A DNA stretch of 64,000 nt from positions 15,661 to 79,660 of the IMG/VR virus record IMGVR_UViG_3300015371_000015; one strand, written 5' to 3'. The position numbers and the translations under genes are program-made. Of this stretch, positions 17,340-40,888 are shown one piece after another. Origin of the DNA: a virus. Below the pieces are notes generated by a model. That model was not told the DNA's origin. It was given only the letters and a program-made list of their open reading frames with translations, and did no database searches. Position 1 is the stretch's first letter. Each line of letters begins with the position of its first letter.

Positions 17340-17633
17340 GTGCATGTAGAAGACATTCTCCGAATCATCAATCTCGTTCTCGCGATTCTCACGATTGTGT
17401 GGCTGGTAATCCGCCGGTTGCGAAATCGTGGAGATTACGGAAGAGGCTCTCTTCGACGCGACATCTGGACGTCATCGTTTTTGTGGTTCTTAGCCGCCAT
17501 CGTCGGTACCTACGAGCAGCTGTTCGATACGGGCACCTACTTCCGTGTCGTCTTTACTCTGGGAGCGATTCTGACAACGATCAGCATTCTCGCCAGACCG
17601 AACAAAGAGTGGGTTGATGGTACCCAGGGATGA
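17340..17633 (+). CDS. Membrane protein (3 TM)
   Basis: Hydrophobic segments; last gene of the structural/lysis block. Confidence 0.55.
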   Translation: MHVEDILRIINLVLAILTIVWLVIRRLRNRGDYGRGSLRRDIWTSSFLWFLAAIVGTYEQLFDTGTYFRVVFTLGAILTTISILARPNKEWVDGTQG

Positions 17634-17644
17634 TCTGTCCGCCT

Positions 17645-17673
17645 TCGCGCTAGAAACAAGTACTTAAATGAGA
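17645..17673 (+). promoter_or_regulatory. First of 24 copies of promoter-like motif TCGCG-N5-AACAA-N4-TNWRAT-GAGA
   Basis: Copies start at 17645, 18146, 18483, 18640, 18823, 20680, 21771, 23411, 25771, 37724, 41044, 41391, 46272, 46579, 46891, 47246, 47502, 47811, 48129, 48385, 49140, 49431, 49790, 55718; identical spacing, all + strand. Confidence 0.85.
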
Positions 17674-17700
17674 ACTATCCTCTAGCGAAAGGCACAGCCT

Positions 17701-18051
17701 ATGGACCCCGACCGCTTTGAAGCGATCCAGAACGGATTCCTCGACCAGATCGACCAGGAGCCGCTCGAAGCCGACAAGACCGCCACCATGATCAAGAACC
17801 TCGAAGCGTTCTCGAAGCTCCAGCCTCGCGTACCCGCGCCTGAGCCCGCAACCACTCCTCCCCTTCCGGAGACCAAGTGGGACCGGTTCAAGTGCGGCGT
17901 CGCGAAGGTCTGGGACAACGAGACGACCCGAGTCGCGATCAAGGCAGGCGCGTCTGTCGGCGGAGTGATCTTCGTCGGCTGGCAGACGATCCACAAGGAC
18001 CGCGTCATCGAACGTCAGGCGCTCGCGCAGGCCAACCAGCGCAGTCTGTAG
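17701..18051 (+). CDS. Hypothetical cassette protein
   Basis: After motif 17645; followed by terminator. Confidence 0.7.
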   Translation: MDPDRFEAIQNGFLDQIDQEPLEADKTATMIKNLEAFSKLQPRVPAPEPATTPPLPETKWDRFKCGVAKVWDNETTRVAIKAGASVGGVIFVGWQTIHKDRVIERQALAQANQRSL

Positions 18052-18506: not shown

Positions 18507-18621
18507 TGAGACCCAGAACCCACCGAAGTTCTGGCCTAGCCTTACTGCCGTATTAAATCGTCCCGAACGATCCAGAACACAAGTTCCTAAGTGCGCTTTA
18601 AGAGTGGGCGCACAGGTCTCA
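18507..18621 (+). ncRNA. Candidate multi-hairpin small RNA
   Basis: tgagacc/ggtctca terminal stem enclosing four hairpins; follows motif 18483; no RBS-ORF. Confidence 0.5.
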
Positions 18622-18690
18622 ACTGTTCATATTTTTCTCTCGCGCTGATAACAACTACTGTAATGAGACCATCCCAGTTTAGGAGCCACC

Positions 18691-20265: not shown

Positions 20266-20679
20266 ATGGGCGAGCGCATCGATCGATTCAAGTCCACGAT
20301 CAAGGTTGCTGAGGTCAAGGCTCATATCCAACGCAACCAGAAGGCATACATCACCGGTGGTGTGTGTCTGGCCATCGGCGTTCTCGGGACGCTGGCGGCA
20401 GCCAAGAACAACAGCACTACGGTGATCAGCAGCATCGAAGGCAACCGGAACAACTTCGTCGGAACGGCGGAGCACGTCACGGTCGTTGTTGCCGAGCTTG
20501 AGCGACGAGGTCACCCGGGCAACGTCGTGCGTTGTCTCGAGACGGGCGAAGTGTTCGCCAGTCAGAGGCGCGCCGCAGAGATGCTCGGCGTCAACCCAGG
20601 AGAGATCTCGAAGCAGCTGCGCGGTCTGACCGATAAGGCCGGCGGCTACACCTTCGAGAATCTCGGCGAGGCTGCCTAG
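20266..20679 (+). CDS. Protein with C-terminal NUMOD1-like helix-turn-helix
   Basis: VRCLETGEVFASQRRAAEMLGV..ISKQLRG...GGYTF. Confidence 0.7.
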   Translation: MGERIDRFKSTIKVAEVKAHIQRNQKAYITGGVCLAIGVLGTLAAAKNNSTTVISSIEGNRNNFVGTAEHVTVVVAELERRGHPGNVVRCLETGEVFASQRRAAEMLGVNPGEISKQLRGLTDKAGGYTFENLGEAA

Positions 20680-20700
20680 TCGCGAAAAGAACAAGCACTA

Positions 20701-20843
20701 AGATGAGACCCCTCTTACTTGGACGATCATTGCGATAGTCCTATGCCATCAAGACGATCATTGCGATAGTCGAGCGATCATTGCGATAGCAGGCATGCCC
20801 AACGGTCATTGCGACAGTTCGGTAAGTGAGAGGGGTCTCATCT
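20701..20843 (+). ncRNA. Candidate sRNA with four repeated C-ATTGC-G hairpins inside a 15-bp terminal stem
   Basis: agatgagacccctct/agaggggtctcatct; repeats at 20722, 20753, 20774, 20801 with compensatory changes. Confidence 0.65.
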
Positions 20844-20891
20844 CTTGGACTTACATCAAGTGAATTATTTTTTCTATCAGCAAGGAGCATC

Positions 20892-21308
20892 ATGAGCAAC
20901 GATATCGAGGACTTCTTGGCCACCCGTGACCAGTTGTCGAAGGAGTACGAAGGCATCGGTCTGAGGATCGATGAACTGCAGGCCGAGCTCAACGACCTCA
21001 AGGCCCGCAAGCGCCTTCTGGACAAGGCATTCGGCGTGCCCGTCAAGAAGACGGCGAGGAAGAAGCCGGCTGCCAAGAAGGCCGCACCCAGGGGCGGAAG
21101 CACGCCCAAGGACGACCCCAACGTCGAGCGTCTGGTCGAGCTGCTGAAGGGGTCTCCCACCATGGGGAGGGACGAGATCGCAACCCACTTCCCCAAGCTG
21201 GACAGCAAGGGCCTGGGTCTGCTGCTGAGCAAGTGCAAGAAGCGCGGTCTCATCGACAACGCCGGCGGTAAGCGGCACCCGGCATGGTTCGCTGTGGAGC
21301 AGGCATGA
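20892..21308 (+). CDS. Putative nucleoid/DNA-binding protein (coiled coil, KKPAAKK linker, winged-helix-like C-terminus)
   Basis: RBS AAGGAG; histone-like basic linker. Confidence 0.6.
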   Translation: MSNDIEDFLATRDQLSKEYEGIGLRIDELQAELNDLKARKRLLDKAFGVPVKKTARKKPAAKKAAPRGGSTPKDDPNVERLVELLKGSPTMGRDEIATHFPKLDSKGLGLLLSKCKKRGLIDNAGGKRHPAWFAVEQA

Positions 21309-21892
21309 TCATTCCTGCTGAACATCGTGACCACTGGATGGAGCCGAAGAACATCTCTCGCAAGCGTGACAAGAGCGAGAAGTTCTGCGAGTCCTGTGGC
21401 GTGGCGATTCCCTTCCATGACCGGAAGTGCTCCTTCCTCAAGGGCCAGACTCGGTGACGGTCGGCATCCCGTGGGGAGAAGACCTCGAGCGTGATTGCTT
21501 GGAGATGCGCAAGTTGGAGTCGTGGGGCCTCTTCGCCAGGGGTCACCACGACGCCACTTGCACTCTCCACCATATGAAAGGATCGACCATGACACCGGAA
21601 GAAGCACCGATCGGAACAGTCTGTCACATCGGCCCTCCCAGGAACGGGAAGCTCGCTCGCAAGGAGCCCGATGGCAAGTGGATCTACCTCAGAGCCGATG
21701 GTGGCGAAGTCGATTACGACGATGCTCACAAGTCCATGACCGTCGCCTTCATGCCTCAGGGCTGAAAAACTCGCGGTCAAAACAACGACTGTAATGAGAG
21801 AGAAGAAGCCAGTAGTCTGGCCTACGCCTATAAGCGTAGCTTCTCTTTTTGTCTCGCTATATTTCAACAATCGCTCACGAAAGGGCAACCGA

Positions 21893-22720
21893 ATGAAGTT
21901 CGACATCGCCAAGGGGATGAAGGCTGCGAAGTCCCTCATCACCGCCAACTCGCCTGTCTTGCTGACCGGTGCATCCATCGCCGGCATCGTTGCGACGGGC
22001 GTCCTCGCTGCCAAGGGCGGCTACAAGGCGCGAGGTATCGTCGACGAGGAGCGCATGCGTCGTGTGGCTTCCCCGGAGCCTCCGTTCGACACCTTCGCCG
22101 AGTACTACAAGACGTACGTGGAGAAGGCGCCGGACCTGACCTTGCAGGAGAAGGTCAAGCTGACTTGGCTCTGCTACGCCGCACCTGCGGTGACTGGTGT
22201 GACCGCGATTAGTTCGACCGCTGGTGTGCACCTGATCCACACCAAGCGGCATGCTGCCCTGGCTGGTCTGTACGCCATGACCAGCGCCAAGCTCGATGAC
22301 GTGAGCGAGAAGGCCGAGGAGCTGCTCGGTCCGAAGAAGGCACAGGAGCTGAAGAACGAGATTTCCCAGAAGGCGGTCGACCGTGACGGTCCGATCGTCA
22401 ACACAGAGGTCATGATCACTGGCGACGGCACGGCTCTGACCCATGACCAGGGAACCGGTCGATGGTTCATGAGTTCGGTCAACAAGATCGAAGCGGCCGT
22501 CAACGAGGTCAATGCTGAGCTGGCCAACAACTCCGGCGCAGTCTGCCTCAACGACCTGTACGACAAGCTGGGCATGGAGCCCGTCGAGCTCGGCAACAAG
22601 GTCGGTTGGTCCGGCACGCTGATCACGGCCAAGTTCGGTGAGGTGAGGGCCTCGGACGGACAGGTGGCCAACAGCGTATGGTTTCAGCCCGCACCCTCGT
22701 TCGGTTACAACAAGCGTTGA
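21893..22720 (+). CDS. DUF6353-like phage protein
   Basis: NSPVLLTGASIAGIVATGVLAAK; LNDLYDKLG..GNKVGW. Confidence 0.7.
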   Translation: MKFDIAKGMKAAKSLITANSPVLLTGASIAGIVATGVLAAKGGYKARGIVDEERMRRVASPEPPFDTFAEYYKTYVEKAPDLTLQEKVKLTWLCYAAPAVTGVTAISSTAGVHLIHTKRHAALAGLYAMTSAKLDDVSEKAEELLGPKKAQELKNEISQKAVDRDGPIVNTEVMITGDGTALTHDQGTGRWFMSSVNKIEAAVNEVNAELANNSGAVCLNDLYDKLGMEPVELGNKVGWSGTLITAKFGEVRASDGQVANSVWFQPAPSFGYNKR

Positions 22721-23739: not shown

Positions 23740-23835
23740 TCCAAGAGCCCTAGCCCATCGCCACCACCACGATGAGTTAGGGTTTTCTCTTCGCCGCTTA
23801 TCGCCACCTATCAGTTCAAAATGGGAGACAAATCT

Positions 23836-24384
23836 ATGAAGACTCGGCTCAACTACGCCATCCTCAACAACGGAGAGGTCAAGGAGGTCATCGATTCCTC
23901 AGTGGTTTTGGATGATGACTCTCACCACACCAAGATCGCATGGATCAACAGCCTGGTGGAGTCCAATCCAGGGTGCATCTTCTTCCTCGTGACCGACACC
24001 ACCGACATCTTCGAGGCTGAAGACGAGCCTGAGATCGAGAGCGTCTCGATGATGTTCGATGCGAACAGTCCCAACTGGGGTCCAGACCCGAAGTACGCCC
24101 TTTCCTTCCTCAAGGCTACGCAGAACCACATGAACAATGTGCTGCAGATCCGTGGATGGCTCGTGCTCAACGACGTGCTGGACGCTGTGGGACTAGAGCG
24201 CACGGCACAGGGCATGACGGTGGGCTGGCGTAGGGACGCAGACGAGGATGGAACCGGAGACGGCTTCATCGACTTCGGACTCGACAGCGAGGACGAGTAC
24301 ACGCTCGCCTTTATTCGTGGAGAAGAGAGCACCGTGCTGTTGGACTTCAACGTCGACGGCGACATATCAAGCAAGGTCTCTTAG
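23836..24384 (+). CDS. DUF6353 C-terminal-domain paralog
   Basis: FLKATQNHMNNVL..LNDVLDA..GDGFIDFG..FNVDG shared with 27004-27894. Confidence 0.7.
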   Translation: MKTRLNYAILNNGEVKEVIDSSVVLDDDSHHTKIAWINSLVESNPGCIFFLVTDTTDIFEAEDEPEIESVSMMFDANSPNWGPDPKYALSFLKATQNHMNNVLQIRGWLVLNDVLDAVGLERTAQGMTVGWRRDADEDGTGDGFIDFGLDSEDEYTLAFIRGEESTVLLDFNVDGDISSKVS

Positions 24385-24414: not shown

Positions 24415-24861
24415 GTGAGTGTTCGTTCTGAAGCTCGCAGGGACGCTGAGGAGTACGCTCGGGCCCAGATGTATTACGGAGATGGCGCGGGCACCAGGCG
24501 AAAGCTGATCGATGCCACCGTCACTTCCAAGATGATGAAGGACCCCATCTACGCCACGTACTTCCGTCAGGAGTACGCCAAGCAAGACATGGGGGAGCAC
24601 GCCATGCGCGCACGCAAGGAGCGGGAGCGTCGTGATCACAACAGCGCGATCATGCGCAACGCCAAGGGTCTGGCCACCGGCAACATCAACCAGGTCAGCC
24701 CTGTCGTGCTCTTCGTCGTGGTGGGCGCAGCCATCGCACACAAGACCGGTCTGGACAAGAAGGCTCTCGACGAGCTGAAGGTCCAAAAGCACCGGTTTGA
24801 CCTGTGGCGAGACAACCGGAGGCGTAAAAGGCGCCACCTCAAGCCAGTGAAAGAGGCTTAA
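24415..24861 (+). CDS. Hypothetical protein
   Basis: RBS AAGGAG; GAGTRRKLI motif. Confidence 0.7.
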   Translation: MSVRSEARRDAEEYARAQMYYGDGAGTRRKLIDATVTSKMMKDPIYATYFRQEYAKQDMGEHAMRARKERERRDHNSAIMRNAKGLATGNINQVSPVVLFVVVGAAIAHKTGLDKKALDELKVQKHRFDLWRDNRRRKRRHLKPVKEA

Positions 24862-25235
24862 TGAACCAAGATGAGTTCGAAGAGGTCTTCGAGCACATGA
24901 TCGGGGCGTCGCGAGACGTTCTGGTCGAGAAGGCTCGGGAGTATGCCAACGACGGCGACCGCATGCACAACTTCAAGCGTGCGGCAGGTCTGAGTGGGCG
25001 TACTCCCGAGCAGATGTGCTGGGGCTTCAACATCAAGCACCTGGTCAGCATCACTGACATGGTTGAGAGCGGGGAGTCCTACCCCGAAGAGAAGTGGGAC
25101 GAGAAACTAGGAGATGCTCTCAACTACCTTATCCTCCTGAAGGCCTTGATCACCGAGGCTAACGCACCAGACCGTATCGCCCTCCACGATGGAACGGGCA
25201 CCGTCATTGCTACGCACGAAGCGCAAGGAGAATAG
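24861..25235 (+). CDS. Alpha-helical nucleotide-modification-associated (Nmad1/DUF1599-like) protein
   Basis: KAREYA..NFK, EKLGDALNYLILL. Confidence 0.5.
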   Translation: MNQDEFEEVFEHMIGASRDVLVEKAREYANDGDRMHNFKRAAGLSGRTPEQMCWGFNIKHLVSITDMVESGESYPEEKWDEKLGDALNYLILLKALITEANAPDRIALHDGTGTVIATHEAQGE

Positions 25236-27003: not shown

Positions 27004-27894
27004 ATGAAGTTCGTACCAAACTCAGTGTCTCGGCTCGCTAGCCGTGGAGCACTCCAGGTGAGTGCCAAGAGCCCCACCATTCTCGTCGTCTCCGGTGTCG
27101 TAGGACTCGGGGCGGCTGCGGTCATGGCCGCACGTGCCACTCGCAAGATCGACCCCGTGATCGAGTCTCACCAGAAGGAGCGGTGGGACATCAAGGCGCA
27201 CATGCCGGCGACGCAGGTGGAGAAGAAGGAGCAGCAGCGCAAGCTGTTCGACCTCTACATGAACACCGGATGGGAGCTGGGTAAGATCTACGGCCCCACC
27301 ATCCTCGTGGGCTCGCTGTCCGCGGTCTCGGTCCTCTACGGTCACCGGATCCTTCAGCGTCGCCACGCGGCGTCCCTGGCGGCGTACTCCAGCCTGTTCG
27401 AGCTGTTCACCTCCTACCGCAAGCGCGTTGCGCAGACGGTGGGTGAGGAGAAGGAGCGGGCCATCTACGACGGTGCGACGCTCCAGTACGTCGAAGACCC
27501 AGACCACAAGGGTGAGTACAAGCTCGAGCCGAAGTTCCCCGACGAGGCGGAGGTCACGTACTTGCGTCCCTGGTTCGGCCCCGACAACCCGAACTGGGTC
27601 AACGACCCGATCTCCACGTTCTCCTTCCTCAAGGGAGTCCAGCAGCACATGAACAACGTGCTGAACACCCGCGGCTACGTCTTCCTCAACGACGTGCTGG
27701 ACGCTCTGCGCTTGCCTCAGGTCAAGCAGGGACAGGTGGCCGGCTGGCTGCTCAAGGACGTAGGGGAGGGTGACGGCTTCATCGACTTCGGCCTCTACAG
27801 TGACGACCCGCACACGGTCGCATTCCGCGACGGCATGTCCAAGACCGTTCAACTCCACTTCAACATCGACGGCAACATCTACGACCTGCTCTGA
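27004..27894 (+). CDS. DUF6353-like phage protein
   Basis: SPTILVVSG..AARAT, YRKRV, RGYVFLNDV, FIDFG, FNIDGNI. Confidence 0.75.
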   Translation: MKFVPNSVSRLASRGALQVSAKSPTILVVSGVVGLGAAAVMAARATRKIDPVIESHQKERWDIKAHMPATQVEKKEQQRKLFDLYMNTGWELGKIYGPTILVGSLSAVSVLYGHRILQRRHAASLAAYSSLFELFTSYRKRVAQTVGEEKERAIYDGATLQYVEDPDHKGEYKLEPKFPDEAEVTYLRPWFGPDNPNWVNDPISTFSFLKGVQQHMNNVLNTRGYVFLNDVLDALRLPQVKQGQVAGWLLKDVGEGDGFIDFGLYSDDPHTVAFRDGMSKTVQLHFNIDGNIYDLL

Positions 27895-37745: not shown

Positions 37746-37843
37746 AATGAGACGTACTGAAGCCAATCAGTTCAAATGTCGTAAGAAGCCAACTACCGAG
37801 CTATCCCTAGCTTAACTGTAGGTTGCGAAGACGACGTCTCATT
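37746..37843 (+). ncRNA. Candidate hairpin sRNA or structured leader
   Basis: aatgagacgt/acgtctcatt terminal stem with internal hairpins; follows motif 37724. Confidence 0.5.
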
Positions 37844-38135: not shown

Positions 38136-38950
38136 ACTCGACTGAGCGAGTCTAAATAGGCCTTAAGCTCAGAGCGGCCCTCTTCGGAGGGTGTGGACTG
38201 TCTGGCGAGACAGAACTTTCTCAGCGAAACTGATCTGGCATACCGGAATCCGGCGTGCTTGCGGGAGTAGGTGTACAACTGAGGATTGGTTAAACAAAAA
38301 CACGTGGTGGCAAGTTCGAGGCAGCCCTGGAGTTGGCCGCTAAGCAGTCGGGTCTCCAGCCCTCTCGGTCTCTGACTCTTCATAGAGAAGAACCGAGGCA
38401 CTACCACCGCTCGCCCAGCACCTGAGGCGTGCAATAAACGGGGTGGCCCCAGTATCAGGCCATGTCAAAAGGCACCCCACCTTGACGTATGTCATATTTG
38501 TTAGAGACCTAGGAGGTGAGAGCGATGCAAGCCCGAGGGTTGTAATCACCCTCCTACAAGTCAACATAGTCTTGGTCATGGCAAGGACCCCCATTACGAT
38601 GGTAAGGCCCCTCCCATGATCATATTCGCATGGAGGCACTACACTCCGTGCGGCAAACCCGTCCCCTACAAACACCCAAGCTTCCGCATAGACGGTCATG
38701 AACGTAAAAGCGGACTGCTGAACTCTAGTGAGCCCAGACAACCTGCGTAGCGGCTTTATGTGGCGCCATCAGGAATCTGCAAGCCTAGAGCAACTGGAGC
38801 GGCCCATAGTGGCCTGGTTACAAATGCACGAGACAAGCACACCGGTCAGGTTAATGTATCCATATTCGTTGTGAATCACTGGACTAAACTGAACCGCGTA
38901 CATGAGGTGAGCTGCCACCATGGTTGATTCCAAGCGCAGTGAAGTTTAAG
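38136..38950 (+). ncRNA. Candidate large (~800 nt) structured ncRNA, or cluster of ncRNAs
   Basis: No credible + strand ORF; dense hairpins (ccctc-ttcg-gaggg, ctgtc/gacag, gtggtgg/ctaccac, ggggtg/cacccc, taggagg/ctccta, ctctag/ctagag, taaact/agttta). Confidence 0.6.
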
Positions 38951-38955
38951 CATTA

Positions 38956-39086
38956 CCCGTTCGGGTCGAATGCAGTCGGTTAACTTGAGTTATTGGTTCG
39001 AGTCCAATATGCCTTCTTTGAGGGCATTGGCGCAATTGGCAGCGCAAAGTACATAAAACCCGGCAGCACCCTTACATCCGAACGGG
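38956..39086 (+). ncRNA. Y RNA 1 (YrlA-like; permuted T arm, acceptor hairpin, D arm)
   Basis: cccgttcgg/ccgaacggg stem; GGGTCGAA/ACATCC; T loop TTCGAGT; D arm TGGCGCAATTGGCAGCGC; directly upstream of Ro60. Confidence 0.88.
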
Positions 39087-39115
39087 CTTCATCTATCCCA
39101 CGCAGAGGAGAACGC

Positions 39116-40888
39116 ATGACCACGACTGACCCGTACGCGGGTTTCGGTACGCGACAGACCCACCAGCAGCACCGTGCTCCCGACCGACCGGAGCAGGTCA
39201 AGAACAACGCCGGCGGCTACGTCTTCCAGATCGATCCCCTGACCCAGCTCAAGCGGTTCCTGACCATCGGGACCGTCGGGGGATCCTACTACGTCGGCGA
39301 GAAGGAACTGACCCGTGAGAACGGTGAGATGATCCTGAGCTTCACGCGCAACCCCACCACGCACGCCCAGCTCGTCGACACCATCGTCGAGATCAGTCTC
39401 GCGGGCCGTGCACCCAAGCAGAACCCCACGCTGTTCGCCTTGGCCATCGCGTGCCAGCACGGCGACACCGCTTCCAAGCAGTACGCGCGCAAGCAGCTCA
39501 CGAAGGTCGTCCGCACCGGTACCCACCTGTTCCTCTTCGTGGGTTACGTCCGGCAGTTCGGTGGCTGGAATCGTGGCATGCGGCGTGCAATCGGTGCGTG
39601 GTACTCCGAGAAGGACCCGGACAAGCTGGCCTACCAGCTGATCAAGTACCGGCGTAGGAACGACCTCACCCACCGTGATGTCTTGCGGATGGCTCACCCG
39701 AAGATCAAGATGGACGAGGTCAACGAGCGGATCGCCATGCTCGATGCCGCGTTCCGGGCGAACGAGGACGACCCGAACACCAAGGAGCTCATGGCGGATG
39801 CTCTTCGGGCTCGCAACGAGCGGCTGAAGCTCCGGTCGAACATCGACTGGACCATCAAGTACCAGAACCGGGACTACTCGGCGCTGGAGGGTGGAACCTC
39901 GAAGATCATCGAGGCGTTCGAGGCCTGCTGGCGTGAGCCGGAGAACATCCCGGCAATCATCAGCGACAACCCGGGGCTCCCCTGGGAGGCCTTGCCGGAC
40001 GAGGCTCTGACCAAGGTGGAGACGTGGGACCGGCTGCTGGACAACGGCATGCCCATCCACGCTCTGCTGCGTCAGCTCCCCCGTCTGACCAACCTCGGGA
40101 TGCTGCCTCCGATGGGGGCCGGGCGTACGGACGATGTCATCCACCAGCTCCTGAACCGTGAGGCGCTGGAGAGGGCTCGGATGCACCCGATCAACGTCCT
40201 GGTGGCGCTCAAGACCTATGCCTCCGGGCAGGGCGAGCGCAACCACTGGTCGCCGAACACCAAGATCATCGACGCGCTGGACGAGATGTTCTACCGCTCG
40301 TTCGGTTTCATCGAGCCCACAGGCAAGCGCATCTTGCAGGCCTGTGACATCTCGTACTCGATGATGGGAGCGAGGACCTTCGGTGGGAAGAAGCCTTTCC
40401 CGCTCTCACCGGCTGAGATCACCGGTGCGATGGCGTTGGCGACGGCTCACATCGAGCCCAACCACCACATCGTCGGGTTCTCCTCGCTCTCGGGGCAGAA
40501 CAACCGGGATCCGCGGGACTCGAAGCTGATCGACCTCAACATCAGCAAGCGGCAGCGCATGGACGACGTCATCAACACGATGTACAACCGGACCTTCGGT
40601 GGTACGGACGTCGCGCTGCCCATGGTCGCCGCCTTGGAGCACGGGTGGAAGATCGACACGTTCGTGATCTACACGGACAACGAGACCTGGCACGGGGATA
40701 TTCATCCTCACCAGGCGCTCGAGCGTTACCGCCGGCAGACCGGAATCGACGCACGCCTCGTGGTGTGTGCGATGTCTGCCTCCCACTTCAGTGTGGCCGA
40801 CCCGAAGGACCCCCGTCAGCTCGACATCAGCGGCTTCGACAGCGCGATGCCTCAGCTGATCTCGGAGTTCTCGGCCGGCAACATCTGA
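39116..40888 (+). CDS. rsr: Ro60/TROVE-domain RNA-binding protein (Rsr ortholog)
   Basis: QVKNNAGGYVF, LKRFLTIGT.GGSYY, RTGTHLF, YQLIKY..R..THRDVLR.AHP; vWA MIDAS DISYSM, GGTD, YTDNETW; GFDS; RBS GAGGAG. Confidence 0.96.
   Translation: MTTTDPYAGFGTRQTHQQHRAPDRPEQVKNNAGGYVFQIDPLTQLKRFLTIGTVGGSYYVGEKELTRENGEMILSFTRNPTTHAQLVDTIVEISLAGRAPKQNPTLFALAIACQHGDTASKQYARKQLTKVVRTGTHLFLFVGYVRQFGGWNRGMRRAIGAWYSEKDPDKLAYQLIKYRRRNDLTHRDVLRMAHPKIKMDEVNERIAMLDAAFRANEDDPNTKELMADALRARNERLKLRSNIDWTIKYQNRDYSALEGGTSKIIEAFEACWREPENIPAIISDNPGLPWEALPDEALTKVETWDRLLDNGMPIHALLRQLPRLTNLGMLPPMGAGRTDDVIHQLLNREALERARMHPINVLVALKTYASGQGERNHWSPNTKIIDALDEMFYRSFGFIEPTGKRILQACDISYSMMGARTFGGKKPFPLSPAEITGAMALATAHIEPNHHIVGFSSLSGQNNRDPRDSKLIDLNISKRQRMDDVINTMYNRTFGGTDVALPMVAALEHGWKIDTFVIYTDNETWHGDIHPHQALERYRRQTGIDARLVVCAMSASHFSVADPKDPRQLDISGFDSAMPQLISEFSAGNI

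What the first reader, a model, noticed from the sequence alone, without database searches (positions are those of the whole stretch)
20701..20843. Small element with four covarying hairpins presenting the same C-AUUGC-G loop
Seen: a perfect 15-bp terminal inverted repeat encloses gac-g-atc-ATTGC-gat-a-gtc twice, gc-g-atc-ATTGC-gat-a-gc, and aac-g-gtc-ATTGC-gac-a-gtt. The fourth copy has compensatory changes in both stems and keeps the G.A mismatch. It follows a promoter-like motif. Known: CsrB/RsmZ-type sRNAs and phage pseudo-ToxI repeats use repeated hairpins to sponge proteins. Inference: a multivalent protein-sponge RNA, or an ssDNA/iteron element. It lies between two putative DNA-binding protein genes.
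Basis: partly seen in the sequence, partly recalled or inferred. Interest (0 to 1): 0.72.

Follow-up and report, generated by a model that had tools for sequence, protein, structure and literature searches.

The report
Phage small RNA displaying repeated AUUGC hairpins
This is very probably a gene for a ~140-nt phage small RNA, with its own phage promoter, that clamps its two ends together and displays four copies of one hairpin with an invariant AUUGC loop; it is in no RNA catalogue searched, belongs to a wider set of similar cassettes in related actinobacterial phages, and its binding partner is unknown.

Summary
Window 20701-20843 has a 20-nt inverted repeat (15 bp perfect) around four 19-nt imperfect hairpins with the loop ATTGC. 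The motif occurs nowhere else in the 79.7-kb phage genome.

The "promoter-like motif" is real. It is one of 22 same-strand copies of a 29-nt phage promoter consensus (0 on the reverse strand).

Homologous cassettes occur in at least 9 related phages, including cultured Arthrobacter phage Qui. Each has the promoter, a closing helix starting at GAGA, 2-4 ATTGC hairpins and, in lower-GC relatives, a T-run. The loop is invariant. The apical 3 bp and the closing helix covary completely, and a non-Watson-Crick spot sits 3-5 bp below the loop. All cassettes lie beside a gene for a membrane-anchored protein with a NUMOD-like HTH domain.

Relatives keep the same scaffold in the same slot with other hairpin modules. 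Two carry a complete cassette in frame inside that gene.

There is no Rfam match and no paper was found.

Best reading: an independently transcribed small RNA that displays several copies of a loop-specific binding site, as a decoy or scaffold. The RNA-gene part is about 0.8 likely; the sponge function about 0.4-0.5. A dsDNA iteron or operator reading is disfavoured. No expression data exist.

The parts
20266..20679 (+). Associated gene: 137-aa protein with an N-terminal hydrophobic helix, a disordered linker and a C-terminal NUMOD-like HTH domain (phrog_27818)
   Evidence: Pfam PF22083 at 2.7e-7 and phrog_27818 at 6.5e-20. In the AF2 model the C-terminal domain has pLDDT above 90 and matches the I-HmuI DNA-binding domain 1u3e. 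A homolog lies within about 700 nt of 10 of the 11 ATTGC cassettes found; for the eleventh, L384, adjacency is apparent only.
20680..20708 (+). Phage promoter consensus TCGCGAAAAGAACAAGCACTAAGATGAGA
   Evidence: 22 forward, 0 reverse and 0 control copies in this genome. 32 forward and 0 reverse copies in Arthrobacter phage Qui. Other copies sit about 20-30 nt upstream of RBS plus start codons.
20701..20720 (+). 5' arm of the closing helix; it overlaps the last 8 nt of the promoter motif, and the GAGA starts at 20705
   Evidence: Every relative has a closing helix that starts at (AT)GAGA and has a different distal sequence.
20722..20740 (+). Hairpin 1: GAC-G-ATC ATTGC GAT-A-GTC
20753..20771 (+). 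Hairpin 2, identical to hairpin 1
20773..20791 (+). Hairpin 3: GC-G-ATC ATTGC GAT-A-GC
20801..20819 (+). Hairpin 4: AAC-G-GTC ATTGC GAC-A-GTT, with two compensatory pair changes
20824..20843 (+). 3' arm of the closing helix
20865..20873 (+). T-rich run (TTATTTTTT) 22 nt after the helix; not a canonical terminator here, and the RBS and ATG of the next gene follow at 20882 and 20892
   Evidence: In lower-GC relatives the T-run directly follows the closing helix.

Best explanation
The element is a gene for a small structured RNA of a lytic-type actinobacteriophage. A copy of the phage's own 29-nt promoter consensus (20680-20708) drives transcription on the + strand. The RNA starts at or next to the conserved GAGA. 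Its first 16-20 nt pair with its last 16-20 nt to form a closing helix. In lower-GC relatives this helix is followed at once by a U-tract, so it also serves as the intrinsic terminator. It would also stop transcripts coming from the upstream gene.

Inside the clamp the RNA displays four copies (two to four in relatives) of one hairpin module. The module has an invariant AUUGC pentaloop on a 3-bp apical helix, and below that a non-Watson-Crick spot, usually with an A on the 3' side. The loop never changes while every helix covaries, and the module is multiplied. The inferred mechanism is therefore sequence-specific recognition of the displayed loop by a factor that is bound in several copies. 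That makes the RNA a multivalent decoy, sponge or scaffold for a host or phage RNA-binding factor.

Shown: the anatomy, the conservation, the covariation, the promoter recurrence and the synteny. Inferred: transcription, the exact ends, the binding and the partner.
For: Anatomy and non-randomness.

Promoter:
- 22 forward and 0 reverse copies in this genome, and 32 forward and 0 reverse copies in phage Qui. Most precede an RBS and ATG at about 20-30 nt.

Homologous ATTGC cassettes:
- L060/G001 has two. Others are in L077/G002, L088/G003, L155/G004, Arthrobacter phage Qui (MN183282 85729-85870), L264/L210 (two), L277 and L384.
- All are predicted to fold as a clamp plus ATTGC-loop hairpins.

Hairpin covariation:
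- For 23 hairpins, 77.6% of positions are paired against 63% in shuffles. The covariation score is 0.427 against 0.206 (0 of 500 shuffles reach it), and slid controls collapse.
- With 8 further hairpins, the apical 3 bp are 95.7% paired. The pair types are C-G/U-A/A-U, U-A/G-C/A-U and A-U/G-C/C-G, while the loop columns are invariant.

Strand and termination:
- T-runs follow the closing helix in relatives, and the closing helices show 13 G.U against 3 A.C.

Other:
- No Rfam family matches.
- One HTH paralog can be followed by three cassettes with different modules, which argues against one-to-one dsDNA recognition.
Against: - There is no expression evidence. No RNA run holds this phage.
- The transcription start is not mapped. 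If the TAnnnT element is a standard -10 hexamer, the start would lie about 7 nt downstream and part of the 5' arm would not be transcribed.
- In the window itself there is no canonical terminator after the helix. The RNA may therefore also be the leader of the 20892 mRNA.
- No partner was identified. No phage ORF is specific to the genomes that carry ATTGC cassettes.
- Within the hairpins, G.U wobbles (about 8) do not outnumber A.C/C.A mismatches (about 10). The strand assignment therefore rests on the promoter, the T-runs and the closing helices.
- The 8 extra hairpins were picked with a filter that required the three apical pairs.
- The constant neighbour is a DNA-binding-type protein.
Confidence: 0.5

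Rival explanations
1. A purely cis-acting transcript-architecture element at an operon junction. The long helix terminates or insulates the upstream operon and stabilises or processes the transcript, for example as an RNase III substrate. The inner hairpins are filler and there is no trans-acting partner.
For: The closing helix is followed by T-runs in relatives. In several members pairing extends into the promoter's last 3-5 nt, which only transcripts from upstream would contain. The next promoter often follows at once. Promoter-plus-stem-loop cassettes are known in T4-type phages (PeSL; a lead from note e1-5644250, not checked here).
Against: A terminator or stabiliser does not need an invariant 5-nt loop kept across phages whose neighbouring protein is only 30-45% identical. 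It also does not need 2-4 copies of that loop, or a conserved mismatch position.
Confidence: 0.2
2. Double-stranded DNA sites (iterons, a centromere or operators). The repeated TCATTGCGA core is bound by the neighbouring membrane-anchored NUMOD-like HTH protein, for example to tether or regulate phage DNA.
For: 10 of the 11 ATTGC cassettes lie next to such a gene, and the eleventh (L384) apparently does. Its C-terminal domain matches the DNA-binding domain of I-HmuI. The layout of four 19-bp units, each with dyad symmetry, resembles lambda ori iterons (from memory).
Against: - The arms differ in sequence between copies and between phages but stay complementary, which duplex recognition does not select for.
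- Variants with GAC-ATTGC-GTC, CGT-ATTGC-ACG and TTA-ATTGC-TAG keep only the 5-nt loop.
- The spacings of 31, 20 and 28 nt (25 and 26 in L060) are not in helical phase.
- One paralog is followed by three cassettes with different modules.
- The positive-inside rule would put the HTH domain outside the cell (inference from the sequence).
Confidence: 0.12
3. A base-pairing regulator or RNA sponge. The AUUGC loops pair with GCAAU in another RNA. One possibility is a codon-like UGC pairing with the anticodon loop of tRNA-Cys; another is an mRNA.
For: An invariant short loop on variable stems is also the pattern of kissing-loop and seed-type RNAs. The loop contains UGC preceded by U (direct reading of the sequence).
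Against: The complement TCGCAATGA is not enriched in the phage: 21 hits against 16.6 expected at one mismatch or fewer. There is no set of GCAAT-loop hairpins in any of six related genomes. The window has no tRNA genes. Five nucleotides is a very short seed. Host RNAs could not be searched.
Confidence: 0.1
4. A mobile or recombination-prone DNA cassette, MITE-like or PeSL-like. Its inverted ends and hairpins act at the DNA level, in insertion or modular shuffling, and the RNA has no function.
For: The same slot holds different modules in relatives. Complete cassettes sit in frame inside the linker-coding part of the HTH gene in two phages. The 29-nt promoter repeats give many sites of homology.
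Against: There is one copy per genome and no target-site duplication. The 'terminal repeat' differs in every phage apart from the promoter-derived GAGA. The invariant loop and the stem covariation point to selection on a folded single strand. Mobility and RNA function are not mutually exclusive.
Confidence: 0.08

Closest known systems
CsrB/RsmZ-type protein-sponge sRNAs
   Same: One small RNA carries several hairpins that present the same short loop motif, which suggests multivalent capture of one RNA-binding protein.
   Different: The loop is AUUGC, not (A)GGA. There is no CsrA/RsmA context. The RNA is phage-encoded. Its 5' and 3' ends are clamped in one long helix. It has no Rfam match.
Y RNAs / bacterial YrlA bound by Ro60 (Rsr)
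   Same: The overall design is similar: the 5' and 3' ends pair in a long helix that closes a module-bearing domain. This phage also encodes a Ro60 homolog at 38993-40885, and earlier notes report Y-RNA-like units nearby.
   Different: It matches no Y-RNA or YrlA model in Rfam. It has no tRNA-like domain. The interior consists of repeated identical hairpins. A link to Ro60 was not tested.
ToxI / pseudo-ToxI (type III antitoxin RNA repeats)
   Same: It has tandem repeated RNA units, sits next to a protein gene, and phages are known to use this kind of RNA.
   Different: The units are short hairpins at irregular spacing, not 34-36-nt head-to-tail repeats. There is no ToxN-like endoribonuclease gene. 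The neighbour is a membrane-anchored HTH protein.
Operator hairpins of ssRNA-phage coat proteins (MS2, PP7) and lambda boxB
   Same: It is a short hairpin whose loop sequence, together with an unpaired purine a few pairs below the loop, would be the recognition feature (comparison from memory).
   Different: The loop sequence is different. There are four copies in a separate sRNA of a dsDNA phage. No cognate protein is known.
PeSL (promoter-early stem-loop) cassettes of T4-type phages (Arbiol et al. 2010; a lead from an earlier scan note, not read here)
   Same: Many copies of a conserved phage promoter are coupled to stem-loops between small genes, so they are modular units that can be shuffled.
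   Different: Here the promoter is followed by a gene-less unit of 100-160 nt with repeated conserved-loop hairpins enclosed by a helix.
Lambda ori iterons
   Same: There are four units of about 19 bp, each with internal dyad symmetry.
   Different: The arm sequences are not conserved. The spacing is not phased. The element is not in or beside a replication initiator gene. It lies in a promoter-to-terminator context.

Membership tests
CsrB/RsmZ sponge RNAs | Multiple GGA / ANGGA motifs in hairpin loops | tested here: not met
   All four loops are AUUGC. No Rfam CsrB/Rsm hit was found even at E up to 10.
CsrB/RsmZ sponge RNAs | Binds and titrates CsrA/RsmA | not testable with these tools
   This needs binding assays.
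ToxI-type type III antitoxin | Head-to-tail repeats of equal length, processed by an adjacent ToxN-family endoribonuclease | tested here: not met
   The spacings are 31, 20 and 28 nt. The neighbours have no ToxN/AbiQ-like family. No Rfam hit was found.
Y RNA / YrlA | A match to the family covariance models (Ro-binding helix, tRNA-like module) | tested here: not met
   No Rfam match over the element at E up to 10, or in the whole window at gathering score.
Y RNA / YrlA | A helix formed by the 5' and 3' ends closes the RNA | tested here: met
   The closing helix is 16-20 bp here and is present in every relative.
Iterons / dimer-binding palindromic operators | Half-site (arm) sequence conserved among the copies bound by one protein | tested here: not met
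   The arms differ between copies and between phages while staying complementary.
Iterons / dimer-binding palindromic operators | Helically phased spacing | tested here: not met
   Spacings are 31, 20 and 28 nt in the window and 25 and 26 nt in L060.
MITE-like mobile element | Several copies per genome, with terminal inverted repeats of shared sequence and target-site duplications | tested here: not met
   There is a single copy in the genome. The flanks ACTA and CTTG are not duplicated. The arms differ between phages.
Intrinsic (Rho-independent) terminator | A G+C-rich helix followed directly by a U-tract | tested here: inconclusive
   This is met in lower-GC relatives (Qui, L155, L077, L264, L277). 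In the window the T-run lies 22 nt after the helix and the scan finds no terminator.
New family proposed here: closed AUUGC-hairpin cassette | The phage promoter consensus is followed by a closing helix that starts at GAGA and encloses two or more AUUGC-loop hairpins with a sub-apical non-Watson-Crick spot, beside a gene for a protein with a transmembrane helix and a NUMOD-like HTH domain | tested here: met
   Window. Eleven cassettes in at least 9 phage genomes.

The most novel reading that the evidence does not exclude
A clade of actinobacteriophages carries an arsenal of 'closed' small RNAs. The clade includes relatives of Quivirus, Pepyhexavirus and Deejayvirinae, plus uncultured soil phages. 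Each RNA is made from the phage's own promoter, is clamped by a 5'-3' helix, and displays 2-4 copies of one hairpin module. Many module types are exchanged between phages: AUUGC, CGUUAAGG, GUGYAAAAG...CACAC, CCGAUAAGG and others. The cassettes cluster behind paralogs of one membrane-anchored HTH gene and even sit in frame inside its coding sequence. This would be a diversifying system of multivalent RNA decoys or aptamers aimed at host RNA-binding or RNA-cutting factors, and the window's element would be one member.
Probability: 0.3. Interest if true: 0.85.

Novelty: new variant of a known kind. Interest (0 to 1): 0.7.

Why it matters
Few structured non-coding RNAs of phages have known functions. 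This one has unusually clear comparative support: an invariant loop, helices that covary completely, and its own promoter and terminator. It matches no Rfam family and no paper found in the library searched.

It appears to be one member of a modular set of multi-hairpin RNAs in phages of soil Actinobacteria. If these RNAs are decoys or scaffolds, they would add an RNA layer to phage-host conflict beyond anti-CRISPR RNAs and pseudo-ToxI.

A cultured phage and host carry the same RNA (Arthrobacter phage Qui on A. globiformis NRRL B-2979), so the hypothesis can be tested directly.

Tried and rejected
- **Rfam.** Scans of the region, of eight related loci and of the whole window gave no family for the element.
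- **blastn against cultured phages.** The 1.2-kb neighbourhood gave nothing. The element alone hit only Qui and Paella.
- **Single 15-mer scan of viral contigs.** It returned 55 single hits, consistent with chance.
- **Two-core pattern scans.** Most hits belong to an unrelated, abundant repeat (GTCATTGCGAG...GAAGCAATC) in which ATTGC lies in a stem. These were filtered out.
- **Downstream protein 20892-21308.** No relatives were found in viral contigs.
- **Expression.** No RNA holder was listed. DNA contigs from four rhizosphere metagenomes are identical over the element, so they give no micro-variation.
- **T7-type RNA polymerase.** The PF00940 search was uninformative because its control also found nothing.
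- **PDB sequence search of the HTH protein.** Only spurious hits came back.
- **Phylogenetic profile of phage ORFs.** No gene is specific to the genomes that carry ATTGC cassettes.
- **Antisense or kissing partner.** The complement is not enriched, and there are no GCAAT-loop hairpins and no tRNAs.
- **Anticodon-loop mimicry.** Rejected by inspection: there is no U33 or purine 37, and the alternative register is not supported by covariation.
- **K-turn and IRE.** Each is only a superficial resemblance, judged from memory.
- **CRISPR-repeat mimic (Racr-like).** Judged unlikely, because the loop is conserved across phages of 45-58% G+C. It could not be tested against host arrays.
- **Literature searches.** Nothing relevant was found.

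Full report
**Setting.** The window is bases 15661-79660 of a 79,660-bp IMG/VR virus record estimated to be complete. It is a siphovirus-type genome of 57.6% G+C, found in rhizosphere metagenomes. Its core genes are terminase, portal, a capsid-protease fusion, tape measure, primase-polymerase and DUF6353 proteins. It shares them with Gordonia phage Gravy (Deejayvirinae), Arthrobacter phage Qui and four uncultured contigs, G001-G004. Nearly all genes lie on the + strand.

**Observation.** The description is accurate. Arms 20701-20720 and 20824-20843 are 20 nt long and 95% complementary, with a perfect 15-bp part. They enclose four 19-nt imperfect hairpins at 20722, 20753, 20773 and 20801. The fourth hairpin changes two base pairs on both sides and keeps the G.A mismatch. 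The 14-nt core occurs four times against 0.41 expected and nowhere else in the genome. The RNA fold is far more stable than shuffles (z = -5.7).

**The promoter is real.** The 29 nt ending at the 5' arm (20680-20708, TCGCGAAAAGAACAAGCACTAAGATGAGA) belong to a consensus with the form TCGCG-N4-AAACAAC-N3-CT-nnAAT-GAGA.
- It has 22 forward, 0 reverse and 0 control copies in this genome.
- Arthrobacter phage Qui has 32 forward and 0 reverse copies.
- Most copies lie 20-30 nt upstream of an RBS and start codon.
- The box spacing does not fit a canonical sigma-70 -35/-10 pair, and the second position of the "-10" is not a conserved A. The motif therefore looks like a phage-specific promoter.

The type of polymerase or factor was not resolved (one search was uninformative). 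The start site is not mapped either. The closing helix always begins at (AT)GAGA, and in relatives the U-tract follows the helix. The RNA must therefore include GAGA for the terminator to form. This places the start at or just before GAGA, which is an inference.

**Homologs.** A 45%-identical homolog of the upstream gene in contig L060/G001 is followed by the same kind of element. It has the same promoter, a perfect 21-bp closing helix of different sequence, and three hairpins that all carry TC-ATTGC-GA. Pattern and protein-guided searches then found cassettes in these places:
- L077/G002, L088/G003 and L155/G004;
- Arthrobacter phage Qui (MN183282 85729-85870) and its relative Paella;
- metagenome contigs L264/L210 (two cassettes) and L277;
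- a second cassette in G001, and L384.

All are predicted to fold as a clamp enclosing ATTGC-loop hairpins. In the lower-GC members the closing helix is followed directly by T6-T8, and often by the next promoter.

**Covariation.**
- In 23 hairpins the loop columns ATTG are invariant. 77.6% of stem cells are paired against 63% in shuffles. The covariation score is 0.427 against 0.206 (0 of 500 shuffles reach it), and slid controls fall to 22-43% paired.
- Positions 4-5 below the loop are unpaired in about half of the hairpins (G.A, A.A, A.G, C.A, A.C, a bulged A, or a small internal loop). This is a conserved irregularity, not noise.
- Variant cassettes keep the loop on completely different apical helices: GAC/GUC, CGU/ACG, GUU/AAC and UUA/UAG. 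All three apical pairs therefore show double changes, with 95.7% paired.
- Caveat: those eight extra hairpins were found with a filter that required the three apical pairs. Their tandem arrangement inside promoter-closed cassettes was not part of the filter.

**Strand.** The closing helices of 26 cassettes hold 13 G.U and 3 A.C oppositions on the promoter-sense strand. Within the hairpins the wobble counts do not discriminate between the strands. The strand assignment rests on promoter orientation, T-runs and the closing helices.

**Neighbourhood.** The upstream gene encodes a 137-aa protein. It has an N-terminal hydrophobic helix and a disordered linker. Its C-terminal domain is a NUMOD-like beta-beta-HTH-beta fold that matches the DNA-binding domain of I-HmuI. 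At least 172 homologs exist.

Ten of the eleven ATTGC cassettes lie within about 700 nt of such a gene, usually downstream and once upstream. The eleventh, L384, apparently lies upstream of one too. G001 has three paralogs, and G003 and Qui have two each. Each paralog is followed by one to three cassettes.

**A wider class.** In relatives the same slot and scaffold carry other modules in 2-3 tandem copies:
- CGTTAAGG loops in L324;
- GACTG-ATCTAC-CAGAC, with an A.A mismatch, in L325;
- GTGYAAAAG...CACAC in L325, L326, L327 and Qui 46566;
- CCGCCGATAAGG in L319;
- GCCATTGGG and CCTTTATGAGG in ReqiPepy6;
- several more in G001.

A different single-copy interior occurs in Gravy, ReqiPepy6 and L190.

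In G003 (17465-17869) and G002 a complete cassette, with promoter, clamp, two hairpins and T-run, lies in frame inside the linker-coding part of the HTH gene. There the promoter's TATAATGAGA is read as (L)IMR.

One paralog can precede three different modules, and the arm sequences are not conserved. A one-to-one duplex-DNA recognition by the HTH protein is therefore unlikely. The reason for the tight synteny remains unexplained.

**Mechanism.** I commit to a small RNA gene whose product displays several copies of a loop that is read sequence-specifically, most likely by a protein bound in several copies (a decoy, sponge or scaffold). The RNA-gene part is about 0.8 likely and the sponge function about 0.4-0.5.

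The rivals are these:
- a purely architectural terminator, insulator or processing element;
- duplex sites for the neighbouring protein;
- a loop-pairing RNA, for example UGC against the tRNA-Cys anticodon loop;
- a DNA-level mobile cassette.

No partner emerged. No phage ORF tracks the ATTGC module. The complementary sequence is not enriched. The window has no tRNA genes.

In the window no canonical terminator follows the helix, and the next gene's RBS lies 39 nt downstream. The RNA may therefore also be the leader of that mRNA.

**Comparison and novelty.** The element works like a CsrB- or Y-RNA-style multivalent, end-clamped RNA. It fails the defining features of CsrB/Rsm, ToxI, Y RNA, iterons and MITEs (see the membership tests). 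No Rfam 15 family matches and the literature searches found nothing.

**Limits.**
- There are no transcript data.
- Host genomes could not be searched.

Noticed in passing
window 38136-38198 (+): A pistol self-cleaving ribozyme (Rfam RF02679; 60.8 bits against a gathering score of 34.5; E = 1.3e-8). It lies at the start of the ORF-free region upstream of the Ro60 gene.
   Followed up: no
window 38993-40885 (+): A phage-encoded Ro60 homolog (TROVE plus Ro60 vWA domains; E = 8e-39 and 5.5e-51). Earlier notes report Y-RNA-like units around it. I confirmed only the protein domains.
   Followed up: partly
whole genome; in the window e.g. 18146, 18483, 21771, 37724, 48129, 49431: A 29-nt phage promoter consensus (TCGCG-N4-AAACAAC-N3-CT-nnAAT-GAGA) with 22 forward and 0 reverse copies. 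The related consensus in Arthrobacter phage Qui has 32 forward copies, many about 300 nt apart in front of small genes. The spacing does not fit a canonical sigma-70 promoter.
   Followed up: partly
window 18508-18622 and 37749-37841 (+): Two further gene-less units that start at a promoter copy and are closed by a helix from GAGAC... to ...GTCTC (fold z = -2.8 and -2.5). They are probably other small RNAs of the same scaffold with different interiors.
   Followed up: partly
G003:C1:17465-17869 and G002:C1:9219-9677 (- strand; L077 gene): A complete cassette (promoter, closing helix, two repeated hairpins, T-run) lies in frame inside the linker-coding region of the gene for the protein with a transmembrane helix and NUMOD-like HTH. 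It gives peptide repeats such as RDSIV...RDSIV and GIQGVPESGIRGVPDG.
   Followed up: partly
G001:C1:6038-6500 and 24422-24900; Qui MN183282 46566-46750; L324-L327; L197:1865-2200: Arrays of one to three cassettes behind each paralog of the HTH gene. Each cassette has 2-3 copies of its own hairpin module; many module types were seen.
   Followed up: partly
many loci, e.g. L078, L087, L111, L145, L152: An unrelated, very abundant repeat family in viral and metagenome contigs (GTCATTGCGAG...GAAGCAATC, with ATTGC pairing with GCAAT). It shares the 9-mer TCATTGCGA by chance and swamps simple pattern scans.
   Followed up: no
L198:1310-1420 (Gordonia phage Gravy) and L197:1340-1450 (Rhodococcus phage ReqiPepy6): A conserved, apparently structured non-coding stretch of about 110 nt upstream of the HTH gene (CTTGGCAAGGGT...CCGGATGCCAAGCTTAAACGACA). 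It has no Rfam match.
   Followed up: no
window 21794-22720, 23821-24381, 27004-27891: Three paralogs of DUF6353 (PF19880) membrane proteins. In relatives a DUF6353 gene often lies directly after the cassettes.
   Followed up: no
window 20892-21308 and L190:2002-2290: The gene after the cassette has a similar C-terminal motif in the window (GLIDNAGGKRHPAWF) and in L190 (GLIENRGRGGRWSEWY). It is possibly a winged-helix domain. No family was found.
   Followed up: no
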